A stretch of 64,000 nucleotides of DNA, from positions 1,488,001-1,552,000 of the forward strand of contig OX597840.1 in NCBI GenBank assembly GCA_951406725.2. The letters run 5' to 3'. The stretch comes from Octopus vulgaris (Eukaryota). Shown here one piece after another: positions 53,932-56,231 of this stretch. Made by a program: the position numbers and the translations under genes. Position 1 is the stretch's first letter. Each line of letters starts with the position of its first letter. The notes under the pieces are model-generated. The model was not told where the DNA came from. It did no database searches and worked only from the letters and a program-made list of their open reading frames with translations.

Positions 53932-54095
53932 AGGTAGAGTTTACGAAAAAAACAAAAGACGAGGACGGGTGGTGTACAAAAGAGACAGAGGTACTAGTAT
54001 AACGCTCAGGGATAGAAAAAGTCTTTTACGTTTCGAGCCTACGCTCTTCTACAGAAAGGGACACAGAAAGACAAGGAGAGAAAAAAGGAGAAAAA
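53932..54095 (-). mobile_element. Hammerhead-bearing element family B (motif at 54023-54058)
   Basis: Minus strand reads CUUU-CUGUAGA-A-GAGC-GUAG-GCUC-GAAA-C-GUA-AAAG; embedded in (TA)n. Confidence 0.72.
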
Positions 54096-54220
54096 TATAT
54101 GCATATATATACATACATACATATATATATATATATATATATATATATATATATATATATATATATATATATATATATATATATATATATATATATATAT
54201 ATTTATATATATACATATAT

Positions 54221-54372
54221 TTGTTAAAGGGGATAACAAATGTTAAGGCAAGACAATCATCTCAAGTCATATACGTTATTATTATTGGAAAAATTCGAAT
54301 TTTTCCTATGATAATAACGTATATGACTCGAGATGATTGTCTTGCCTTAACATTTGTTGTCTTCTTTAACAA
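54221..54372. repeat. ~150-bp imperfect spacer-less palindrome
   Basis: Centred on ggaaaaattc|gaatttttcc; arms include acaaatgttaaggcaagacaatcatctc / gagatgattgtcttgccttaacatttgt. Confidence 0.93.
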
Positions 54373-54564
54373 TTATATATCCGCTGTATCGGAAATCTAC
54401 AATGGCTTCATAACTACCGTCTCGGCTATAACCCTGGGGCCCTGGAAATCCGTTACAGCACTTACCTAGAGTACCAAGTCGTTTAGATCACCTGTGAATT
54501 TCACACCAATATTTTATATATGTATATATATACATACATATATATATACTCCATGGTCATACGT

Positions 54565-54811
54565 GAGAGATGTCATCGCAGAGTATACACGCAGGATAAT
54601 CGGTGGACGCACGCAGTTGTTGAGTGGTACCCGCTTGAGAGGAAAAGACCACCCGGAAGACCTCCACGACGGTGGAGTAACGATTTCTGGAGGACGATTG
54701 GGATCACGTGGATGAGAAAGGCGCGATCCAGAGAGGAGTGGACAGCGTGCTGTGACCAGCGGTGTCAAATGGACGCCTGACGGACTGGTCGGTCAAGGTG
54801 ATCAAGGTGAT
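54565..54811 (+). mobile_element. 3' end of an RTE-clade LINE
   Basis: DNRWTHAVVEWYPLERKRPPGRPPRRWSNDF..GITWMRKARSREEW is a typical RTE C-terminus; a short 3' UTR ends in (tcaaggtga)x2. Confidence 0.85.
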
Positions 54812-55959
54812 ATATAAATACATATTATATATATATATATAATGGCGGTGCCCCAGCATGGCCACAGCTCATTAGCTGAAACTGGAAAAATCAGAATCAA
54901 ATCAAATCATATATATATATATATATATATATATATATATATTTATAAATAGGGTGCAGCAAAAAGGTTGGCCCGAATTCAAAGGTTAATAAAAACAAAC
55001 ACGCGTAGATAAAGGAAAAAAAAACTTTGCATTTCCATGAAGGCCATGTTGGGGAGTGTCTGAAACAAAAACAAAAACAATAGCATTTAATGAACTTCAT
55101 AGAAAAATACAGATTTTTCATACACCTTCATGTCTTTGTTTTTTACTGATCGTTGAAAAGCACGCAACCTTTCTGCCTCACTCTGCCGCTCTCTCTCTCC
55201 GTTTCTAACTCTCTCTCTCTCTCTCTCTACGTATCCATTCCCAAGTAAAATTATATATATACATATACATATACATACATATATATATATATATATATAT
55301 ACATATACACACACACGCAAAAATGCATATTAATTATTCAGTACGCCCTCGTGTATATCTATCTATCTATCTATATATATATATATATATATATATATAT
55401 ATATATATATACGTGTATGTATATATACTTACATATATACATACACGTATATCACAGGCTTCCATAAAATTTCCTTTTATCACCCAGAAGACATTCTTTG
55501 GCAATATGCTACGACAAACTATACTTACCCAATGTACTCCGTAGTGGGACTGAAACAGGAACTGCATACCTGCTATACCTGCTAAATGAACTCCTTCACT
55601 GCACAGCTATAGATCAACATAGATTGATCATAAACTCATAGAAAGATATATATATCTATATATATATATATATATACTTGCCGAACCGCTAAGTAACGGG
55701 GACATAAACACACCAGCATCGATTGTCAAACAATGCTAGGGGGACAAACACTAATACATACTAATACATACACCAACCCTATACATACACACGTCCAGAC
55801 CCCTCATACGCACTTATACTCTCTCATACACTCACACACACTTATACAAACTAATACGTACTAATACATATTAATACATACTAATACATACACCAACCCC
55901 TACATACGCCTGTCCAGACCTATCCTAGGGTCATTCAACCCTATTATCAACCCTATTAT

Positions 55960-56231
55960 CTCCCCTTATTTCGCTCTCGCGTCTCATGTTTGATCTTTGA
56001 CCTCTGGCCGAAATCAGATCGCCATGTTGATTCGTTAGTTACTGCACGCATTTTTTTTCTCTCCTTCTTTCTGTGTTTTTTTTCTCTCTGTGTATCTTTC
56101 TGTTGAAGAGCGTAGGCTCGAAACGTTAAAGACTTGTTTTATTTATATTTCCTGAGCGCCATACTAATACAATTGTTTGTTTGTTTTCCACCTGCCTTCG
56201 ACTTTTGTCTATTTTCATAAAGCTTCCCGTT
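55960..56231 (+). mobile_element. Hammerhead-bearing element family B (motif at 56095-56132)
   Basis: UCUUU-CUGUUGA-A-GAGC-GUAG-GCUC-GAAA-C-GUU-AAAGA; the 3' end abuts (TA)n. Confidence 0.72.

What the first reader, a model, noticed from the sequence alone, without database searches (positions are those of the whole stretch)
53932..56231. Family B: hammerheads with a shared A6-to-U core change and covarying stems
Seen: two copies read CUGU(A/U)GA instead of CUGANGA. Relative to family A, stem I changes in a compensatory way (GUUU/AAAC to CUUU/AAAG) and loop II differs while GAGC/GCUC is kept. Both families share a downstream CCUGAGCG..UA(A/G)UAC motif. Known: A6 is highly conserved in hammerheads. 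Inference: the structure is under selection, so this is either an unusual active core variant or a fold retained for a non-catalytic role such as RT recognition.
Basis: partly seen in the sequence, partly recalled or inferred. Interest (0 to 1): 0.7.

Follow-up and report, generated by a model that had tools for sequence, protein, structure and literature searches.

The report
Penelope hammerhead family with U6 core
Two dispersed copies of a very abundant repeat, likely the tail end of a Penelope-like jumping gene, carry a small hammerhead-shaped RNA motif in which a normally fixed core letter (A6) is a U, likely as an inherited family trait, so the motif is predicted to cut itself only slowly, or to be kept mainly as a fold, and this has not been tested.

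Summary
Two copies (C3 at 54054 minus, 56100 plus) read CUGU(A/U)GA and otherwise have the full anatomy of Penelope-type minimal hammerheads: stem I, an extra nucleotide after A9, stem II, GAAA, palindromic ACGU and a GUH site. U6 is very likely inherited, not decay. The copies are 76% identical in their flanks but 34/36 in the motif, and the two differences are N7 and H17, the free positions of the hammerhead consensus. Contigs of four public runs (2,419-10,920 laid per run) list alternatives at N7 and H17 but none at position 6, although that table is filtered. 'Covarying stems' is overstated: one pair, one event. The two copies are separate 5'-truncated insertions ending 94-103 nt after the cut site at (TA)n; no RT gene is linked. 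Best reading: a Penelope-like terminal repeat whose hammerhead is still under selection but attenuated; the RNA is copied uncut. Cleavage is untested. I found natural A6C and U3-A8 cores in print but no U6 family; the largest survey (Lunse et al.) could not be read. New variant of a known kind.

The parts
53932..54102 (-). Copy B1: 5'-truncated repeat copy of about 170 bp, starting 48 nt before C3 and ending 94 nt after H17, between (TA)n runs
54023..54058 (-). B1 minimal type I hammerhead motif: stem I CUUU/AAAG, core CUGUAGA (C3 54054, U6 54051), extra A, stem II GAGC/GCUC with loop GUAG, GAAA, palindrome ACGU, H17 = A at 54027
   Evidence: 31.2 bits, E 1.4e-07 against a model built from 46 outside motifs
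53991..54010 (-). B1 downstream conserved block (CCUGAGCG ... UAGUAC), shared with family A
55750..56230 (+). Copy B2: longer 5'-truncated copy ending 103 nt after H17 at a (TA)n run. The 5' limit is approximate (55750-55800); the family is covered by run contigs from 55925 on
   Evidence: (tables 2 and 7)
56095..56132 (+). B2 minimal type I hammerhead motif: stem I UCUUU/AAAGA, C3 56100, U6 56103, N7 56104, A9 56106, extra A 56107, stem II 56108-56111/56116-56119, G12 56120, palindrome 56123-56126, H17 = U at 56127
   Evidence: 35.6 bits, E 5.1e-09
56151..56170 (+). B2 downstream conserved block (CCUGAGCG ... UAAUAC)
56040..56099 (+). Pyrimidine-rich tract leading into stem I; similar tracts precede B1 and the family A copies
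53551..53750 (+). Neighbouring family A copy (sister family, U4C core, C3 at 53625). Four more copies have C3 at 13614-, 36674-, 47604- and 47820+. Context, not part of B
18600..18800 (+). Relative of family B that shares the upstream and downstream flanks but has a different middle with no intact hammerhead
   Evidence: not among the 12 matches of model R1

Best explanation
The two motifs are separate, 5'-truncated copies of one high-copy repeat family, likely the 3' terminal repeat (pLTR) of a Penelope-like retrotransposon, whose master element likely carried U in place of A6 and is predicted to use the motif as a slow hammerhead that cuts only as a dimer or with help from the element's protein. 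Inferred cycle: the element's RNA folds mostly into an inactive rod, because U6 can pair with A15.1 and hide the ACGU palindrome. It therefore stays uncut. The reverse transcriptase starts about 95-100 nt downstream of the cut site at a nick in (TA)n DNA and copies back through the intact motif, leaving copies with a shared 3' end and ragged 5' ends. Rare cleavage after GUA, in dimers or in the ribonucleoprotein, would be what keeps the rest of the core under selection. Shown: sequence, shared U6, motif conservation, shared 3' ends, (TA)n flanks, high copy number. Inferred: Penelope parentage, folding, any cleavage. The two genomic copies face away from each other on opposite strands and are probably inert. 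I put the family-level U6 at about 0.9 and Penelope origin at about 0.85; the confidence below is for the whole statement, including residual cleavage.
For: Inheritance of U6: B1 and B2 share it although their flanks are only 87/114 identical. Two independent A-to-T hits at one site would have a chance of at most about 0.002 at 12% decay per copy (my estimate). In four runs of three organism labels, 10,920, 7,808, 4,779 and 2,419 contigs were laid on B2; no other letter is listed at 56103, while 56104 shows A (17-22% of depth) and G (8-9%) and 56127 shows A (59-87%). Selection: motif 34/36 against flanks 87/114, p 0.010; both differences fall on N7 and H17 (p 0.033 for 7 free positions of 36). 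In one search, 3 of the 4 listed variable positions inside the motif are free ones (p 0.018); the fourth, G16.2 to A at 3-4%, is in a CpG. No G is listed at H17. Depth over the core is about 1.4 to 5 times that of the 3' flank, and the best-supported loose ends include 56096 and 56135, the motif's edges. Penelope anatomy: the extra nucleotide after A9, G10.1-C11.1 and the palindromic 15.2-16.2 match Cervera and De la Pena 2014 (PMC4209133). All 7 A and B copies end 94-111 nt after H17 at (TA)n; Frangieh 2024 puts the cut 26 nt and the RT start 111-118 nt into the ORF of a Poseidon element, that is 85-92 nt apart, and reports AT-rich targets, a protein-assisted hammerhead and uncut RNA as the main template (PMC11167929). 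Substitution at position 6 can leave activity: natural A6C gives kobs 0.004-0.05 per min in 1-3 mM Mg2+ and about 0.3 in Mn2+ (PMC7151607). Predicted monomers pair positions 4-6 with 15.1-16.2 at probability 0.56-0.98.
Against: No cleavage was measured. In a pairwise mutagenesis of a type III hammerhead, all single and double mutants of the CUGA region other than the C3-G8 swap had low activity and none rescued another (PMC9901934, passages; no A6U value seen). In another ribozyme A6C fell to 3.6e-6 per min in 0.3 mM Mg2+. The table of other letters is filtered: every listed row has a contig with the change 31 or more letters from its end, and expected common changes (for example at 56159-56160) are missing, so the empty row at 56103 is not a count. 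The selection test rests on two copies that were picked because the motif is intact. The rod fold alone would also leave N7 and H17 free, and family A has a similar inhibitory pairing without U6. Neither B copy folds better than shuffles (z -0.64 and 0.24). No RT or GIY-YIG gene is linked: 150 of 199 candidate frames were scanned and the only RT-like hits lie elsewhere. A flank-sharing relative lacks the motif.
Confidence: 0.45

Rival explanations
1. The motif no longer cleaves. It is kept as a folded RNA handle (stem I, the U4-G5-U6/A15.1-C15.2-G16.2 helix, a purine-rich internal loop and stem II) that the element's RT/EN protein binds, or as part of the pLTR's promoter or splice signals.
For: The predicted minimum-energy fold of both copies is this rod, which U6 extends. 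It also leaves N7 and H17 loosely constrained. Catalytic hammerhead mutants do not impair insertion by a Poseidon element in vitro. Cervera 2014 leaves functions other than cleavage open. CUGA mutants are poorly active. A pyrimidine tract runs into the core, and B1 reads like a 3' splice site there (sequence); in D. virilis Penelope the intron ends at helix I.
Against: C3, G8, G12, U16.1 and the H rule at position 17 are all kept, which a plain rod does not require. The rod is no more stable than shuffles. No protein binding was tested. No joint was listed in the one RNA-guessed run (table 5), which neither supports nor excludes splicing.
Confidence: 0.33
2. The hammerhead is dispensable in this lineage. 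A6U killed it in a master element that then amplified, and the motif only looks conserved because pyrimidine-rich flanks mutate faster and because intact copies were picked.
For: A relative with both flanks lacks the motif. Naiad and most Chlamys elements spread without canonical hammerheads (PMC8557442, passages). The statistics rest on two copies. In one search the density of listed variable positions is no lower inside the motif (4 of 36) than outside (23 of 270).
Against: The less repetitive 3' flank alone is also more diverged than the motif (53/70 against 34/36, p 0.013). The large-share changes fall on N7, H17 and loop II.
Confidence: 0.15
3. The family consensus is canonical A6 and these two copies decayed, or U6 marks only a small subfamily.
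For: A6 is the rule elsewhere: 56 of 56 representatives in Cervera's Figure S3 and 49 of 51 outside motifs, with none U. The filter could hide a common allele.
Against: Both copies share the same transversion despite 24% flank divergence. Alleles at 8-22% at the next position are listed in all four runs, and none at position 6.
Confidence: 0.07

Closest known systems
Minimal type I hammerheads (min-HHRs) of metazoan Penelope-like elements (Cervera and De la Pena 2014, PMC4209133), closest in layout to the Acropora digitifera Neptune motif of their Figure S3
   Same: Short stem I, one extra nucleotide after A9, G10.1-C11.1, 4-bp stem II with a 4-nt loop, GAAAC-GUH with no loop III, pyrimidine/U-rich flanks, mostly solitary copies, some head-to-head.
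   Different: U at position 6 (56 of 56 of their representatives have A, though their descriptor demanded it). The only core change they describe in the parts I read is the compensatory U3-A8. No linked ORF was found here.
Bcep176 phage hammerhead with natural A6C (Perreault 2011, PMC3088659; Naghdi 2020, PMC7151607)
   Same: A natural pyrimidine at position 6; slow in Mg2+, better in Mn2+.
   Different: C rather than U; one phage example, not a repeat family with thousands of contigs; activity measured there and not here.
Poseidon PAc element of Anolis carolinensis (Frangieh 2024, PMC11167929)
   Same: Hammerhead about 90-100 nt upstream of the common 3' end of insertions, AT-rich targets, copies that span the cut site intact.
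   Different: No position-6 change is mentioned for PAc in the passages read. Its ORF starts at stem II; no ATG lies there in family B. PAc's protein and cleavage are demonstrated.
Non-LTR retrozymes (Cervera and De la Pena 2020, PMC7229834; Li et al. 2026 bioRxiv 10.64898/2026.07.22.740005)
   Same: Non-coding animal repeats with type I hammerheads, thought to derive from Penelope-like elements.
   Different: Retrozymes are tandem 170-400 nt units with canonical type I motifs. These copies are solitary, of unequal 5' length, and carry the minimal motif.

Membership tests
Hammerhead ribozyme (canonical core) | C3 U4 G5 A6 N7 G8 A9 core | tested here: not met
   A6 is U in both copies; the other six positions fit
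Hammerhead ribozyme (canonical core) | G12 A13 A14, A15.1-U16.1 and NUH cut site | tested here: met
   GAAAC-GUA in B1 and GAAAC-GUU in B2; A is the majority at 17 in four runs
Hammerhead ribozyme (canonical core) | Match to an Rfam hammerhead model | tested here: not met
   No hammerhead family at E up to 10 on either copy. None among the 150 of 284 rows shown for the whole window, where the A copies were not shown either, so these models seem not to cover minimal motifs
Hammerhead ribozyme (canonical core) | Site-specific self-cleavage | not testable with these tools
   Needs an assay; only contigs were available, which cannot show RNA ends
Penelope-type min-HHR | Type I layout with stems I and II and G10.1-C11.1 | tested here: met
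   Stem I of 4 and 5 bp, stem II of 4 bp
Penelope-type min-HHR | Extra nucleotide between A9 and G10.1 | tested here: met
   A at 56107 and its counterpart in B1 (feature)
Penelope-type min-HHR | Palindromic 15.1-16.1 with no loop III, allowing a dimer | tested here: met
   ACGU in both; predicted duplex -3.7 and -4.9 kcal/mol. The double-hammerhead fold itself was not scored
Penelope-type min-HHR | Scores as a member of a model built from outside min-HHRs | tested here: met
   35.6 and 31.2 bits, within the range of family A (20.6-37.4). Partly circular, since the training set was selected for the same stem II
Penelope-like element | pLTR joined to an RT plus GIY-YIG ORF | tested here: inconclusive
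   No such ORF near either copy. No whole genome was held, so full-length elements could not be sought
Penelope-like element | Shared 3' end downstream of the hammerhead, 5' truncation, (TA)n targets, inverted partner pieces | tested here: met
   3' ends 94 and 103 nt after H17 at (TA)n, unequal 5' lengths. Inverted 5' pieces or head-to-head pairs were seen for sister family A, not for B
Non-LTR retrozyme | Tandem head-to-tail units, each with a hammerhead | tested here: not met
   Both copies are solitary and on opposite strands

The most novel reading that the evidence does not exclude
One of the most abundant hammerhead lineages of an animal genome has fixed U at the 'invariant' position 6 and kept everything else under selection across several species. 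Either U6 hammerheads cleave well inside their retrotransposon ribonucleoprotein, which rewrites the CUGA rule, or a ribozyme has been turned into a non-catalytic RNA handle for a telomerase-like reverse transcriptase. With the U4C sister family beside it, this would mean that the most successful Penelope-like families are those that tuned their ribozyme down.
Probability: 0.3. Interest if true: 0.75.

Novelty: new variant of a known kind. Interest (0 to 1): 0.5.

Why it matters
The role of the hammerheads in Penelope-like elements is an open question: they cleave poorly alone, one needs its protein, and insertion in vitro does not need the cut. A natural high-copy family with a fixed substitution at a core position, and a sister family with another (U4C), gives ready-made wild-type versus revertant pairs to ask whether selection acts on catalysis or on the fold. 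It also shows that CUGANGA-based searches miss whole repeat families, so counts of animal hammerheads are biased. If U6 is active, it adds a natural core variant with possible metal or protein dependence.

Tried and rejected
No whole genome is held, so copies could not be counted. Rfam: only microsatellite-driven miRNA-like matches among the 150 of 284 rows shown, and no hammerhead on either copy. An exact family B pattern found 0 stretches in metagenome contigs and 0 in prokaryote genomes; a looser U6 pattern gave 13 prokaryote matches that I took as chance and did not examine; 17 viral matches showed no min-HHR geometry. Reading position 6 from spurious protein predictions of the antisense frame failed: no hits. 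No RNA holder was listed for the stretch, and X15 is only guessed to be RNA, so expression is not addressed. 'Covarying stems' as evidence for selection on family B was rejected (one event). One composite B1-B2 inverted element was rejected (76% flank identity, unrelated repeats between). The idea that the downstream UGAGC block is a switch strand pairing with the 3' strand of stem II plus G12 fits families A and B, but a GAGC within 70 nt appeared in only 8 of 64 outside motifs, so it is left as a lead. Literature searches for a natural U6 core and for cephalopod Penelope hammerheads found none. Lunse, Weinberg and Breaker (RNA Biol 14:1499) is not held and was not seen. Perreault's Figure S7 of inactive variants gave no text hits, and its drawings could hold an A6U case. 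PMC11014351 was not relevant. Earlier scan notes held nothing on this sequence or genome and one unrelated note.

Full report
Setting. The window is AT-rich animal-type DNA full of microsatellites and short dispersed repeats. From recall, several of these repeats resemble octopus SINEs; this was not tested and comes from no call. No whole genome is held. A loose scan for type I hammerhead geometry, BLAST within the window and a motif count found 7 related motifs: 5 of family A and 2 of family B, plus a few unrelated weaker candidates.

Observation. Around the core lie a 4-5 bp stem I (CUUU/AAAG), an extra A after A9, stem II GAGC/GCUC with loop GUAG, then GAAAC and GUA or GUU. A pattern written from the copies matches twice against 0.00 in shuffles. 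CCTGAGCG occurs exactly 6 times in the window, each time downstream of an A or B motif. Three corrections apply. The covariation between A and B is 1 of 8 pairs and one event, and 269 of 500 shuffles reach one such pair. Family A is itself non-canonical, with U4C in 5 of 5 copies. The reported interval joins two separate insertions.

What it is. The layout is that of the minimal hammerheads of Penelope-like elements. Cervera and De la Pena 2014 (PMC4209133; I read parts 1-2 of 4 of the text and parts 1-2 of 3 of the supplement) list the extra nucleotide after A9, G10.1-C11.1, the palindromic 15.2-16.2, and mostly solitary or head-to-head copies. A covariance model built from 46 distinct outside motifs scores B2 at 35.6 and B1 at 31.2 bits, within the range of family A. 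In that outside set stem I covaries clearly (49 cells changed on both sides, 0 of 500 shuffles). All 7 window copies end 94-111 nt after position 17 at a (TA)n run, and their 5' ends vary. In the Poseidon element PAc, the RT starts 85-92 nt after the cut site, prefers AT-rich DNA and mostly copies uncut RNA, and the hammerhead cleaves only with the protein (PMC11167929; passages and part 2 of section 3). Craig 2021 gives (TA)n as a preferred target of some clades and describes inverted 5' pieces (PMC8557442; passages). No RT or GIY-YIG frame lies next to either copy: Pfam on the 150 longest of 199 non-repetitive frames hit only a weak RT at 3531-3773 and an RNase H at 18052-18486, among a few weak unrelated hits. 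Penelope membership therefore rests on non-coding anatomy.

Is U6 a family trait? Very likely. First, B1 and B2 share the same transversion while their flanks are 87/114 identical; independent decay would have a chance of at most about 0.002 by my estimate. Second, 20 of 24 listed runs hold at least half of B2's 28 sampled words, under four organism labels, among them runs of only 37-46 million letters, as expected of a high-copy repeat. I laid 4 of these runs (X4, X5, X7, X15; none from the possible source sample) at 80% likeness: 10,920, 7,808, 4,779 and 2,419 contigs. Listed alternatives inside the motif are N7 (A 17-22%, G 8-9% of depth), the first loop II base (3-22%), G16.2 (3-4%, in a CpG) and H17 (A 59-87%). 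Nothing is listed at position 6. Against this, the table has 30 rows, every row has a contig with the change 31 or more letters from its end, and common changes visible in the loose-end consensus (56159-56160) are absent, so a common allele could be hidden. This is support, not a count. As a control, of 64 outside matches with GAAAC(AU)GUH, 61 have A6, 2 C and 1 U; after dropping 13 without a 3-bp stem I, 49 of 51 have A, 2 C and none U. All 56 rows of Cervera's Figure S3 have A6, but their descriptor required it.

Is it under selection? Probably. The motif is 34/36 identical between B1 and B2 against 76% in the flanks (p 0.010; p 0.013 against the 3' flank alone), and the two differences are N7 and H17. 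Three of the four variable positions are among the 7 free positions of 36 (p 0.018). Depth over the core is about 1.4, 2.3, 5 and 5 times that of the 3' flank in the four runs. The best-supported loose ends include 56096 and 56135, with low agreement (0.55-0.66), which I read as several subfamilies that share the motif and differ outside it. Whether those subfamilies all carry U6 cannot be told. Results against: only two full copies, chosen for being intact; no lower density of listed variable positions inside the motif (4 of 36 against 23 of 270); no folding signal over shuffles; and a relative at about 18600-18800 that keeps both flanks without the motif.

How it likely works. Folding predicts that monomers pair U4, G5 and U6 with G16.2, C15.2 and A15.1, hiding the palindrome; this rod is 0.2 (B1) to 2.4 (B2) kcal/mol below the open form. 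Family A has a comparable inhibitory pairing, so this is not special to U6. The double-hammerhead fold was not scored. Changes at position 6 are costly: natural A6C is slow in Mg2+ and rescued by Mn2+ (PMC7151607, parts 1-2 of 4; PMC3088659, passages and section 8), and CUGA mutants of a type III ribozyme had low activity (PMC9901934, passages; its supplement gave no per-mutant value). Since a cut in the 3' repeat would part the RT start site from the body of the element (inference), a slow ribozyme suits amplification, and every copy here spans the site intact. I commit to an attenuated, dimer- or protein-assisted hammerhead (0.45), ahead of a non-catalytic handle (0.33), a dispensable relic (0.15) and copy decay (0.07).

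Novelty. Searches for a natural U6 core returned only A6C, U4C, U3-A8 and insertions. Searches for cephalopod Penelope hammerheads found none. The 2026 Octopus vulgaris repeat annotation lists 190 Penelope-like families covering 6.83% of that genome and has no occurrence of 'ribozyme' in its text or 'hammerhead' in its supplement (PMC13282606; passages). Also seen: PMC6765202 (passages), PMC7229834 (passages), PMC12192606 (passages), PMC11014351 (passages) and bioRxiv 10.64898/2026.07.22.740005 (part 1 of 5; its supplements were not seen). Lunse et al., recalled as the largest survey of these motifs, was not seen and may hold this variant; so may drawings in Perreault's Figure S7. The 8 of 11 earlier scan notes shown on Penelope core variants concern other genomes, mostly U3-A8 cores; none names U6.

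Verdict. A real, probably family-wide A6U core in a Penelope-type minimal hammerhead: a new variant of a known kind. It fails the canonical hammerhead core test at one position, is built like a Penelope min-HHR, and its activity is untested. Interest 0.5.

Noticed in passing
window C3 at 13614-, 36674-, 47604-, 47820+, 53625+: Family A also departs from the canonical core: all five copies have U4C. U4C also appears in 6 of the 51 outside min-HHR-like matches, in a family close to the Acropora Neptune motif. Two abundant sister families thus each carry a core-weakening change.
   Followed up: partly
window 18600-18800 +: Relative of family B with both flanks conserved but a different middle. 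It has a short hairpin and a CUGAA-like stretch at 18679-18686, either a decayed A6-type hammerhead or a motif-less subfamily.
   Followed up: partly
window 56151-56158 and the same block in all A and B copies: The downstream UGAGC(G) repeats the 5' strand of stem II and could pair with its 3' strand plus G12, an alternative fold that would switch the hammerhead off. It is not general in outside families.
   Followed up: partly
window 54050-54100 (minus): The pyrimidine tract of B1 runs into UGUAG, which reads like a 3' splice site inside the hammerhead core; A at N7 is the commonest listed alternative in the runs.
   Followed up: no
window 52683-52725 +, 36880-36935 -, 56640-56690 +, 29620-29675 -: Further, unrelated hammerhead-like motifs: canonical CUGAAGA, CUGACGA and CUGAUGA cores and one CCGACGA. 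The one near 56645 has an inverted 5' piece (56561-56606) and sits between 240-nt inverted arms (56231-56470 and 56742-56981).
   Followed up: no
window 13486-13773 and 47470-47963: Family A copies with an inverted 5' fragment, and a head-to-head pair split by a microsatellite, as described for Penelope-like insertions.
   Followed up: partly
window 54225-54375, 43782-43877, 19197-19289: Long near-perfect palindromes (MITE-like hairpins); the first lies between B1 and B2.
   Followed up: no
window 3531-3773 + and 18052-18486 +: Weak RT fragment (Pfam RVT_1, E 0.004) and an LTR-type RNase H fragment (E 2.7e-10), unrelated to the hammerhead copies.
   Followed up: no
L002 4001-4028 and 4153-4180: Two min-HHR motifs on opposite strands about 150 bp apart in a metagenome contig, the same head-to-head layout as in the window. 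Stem I covaries strongly across the outside families.
   Followed up: partly
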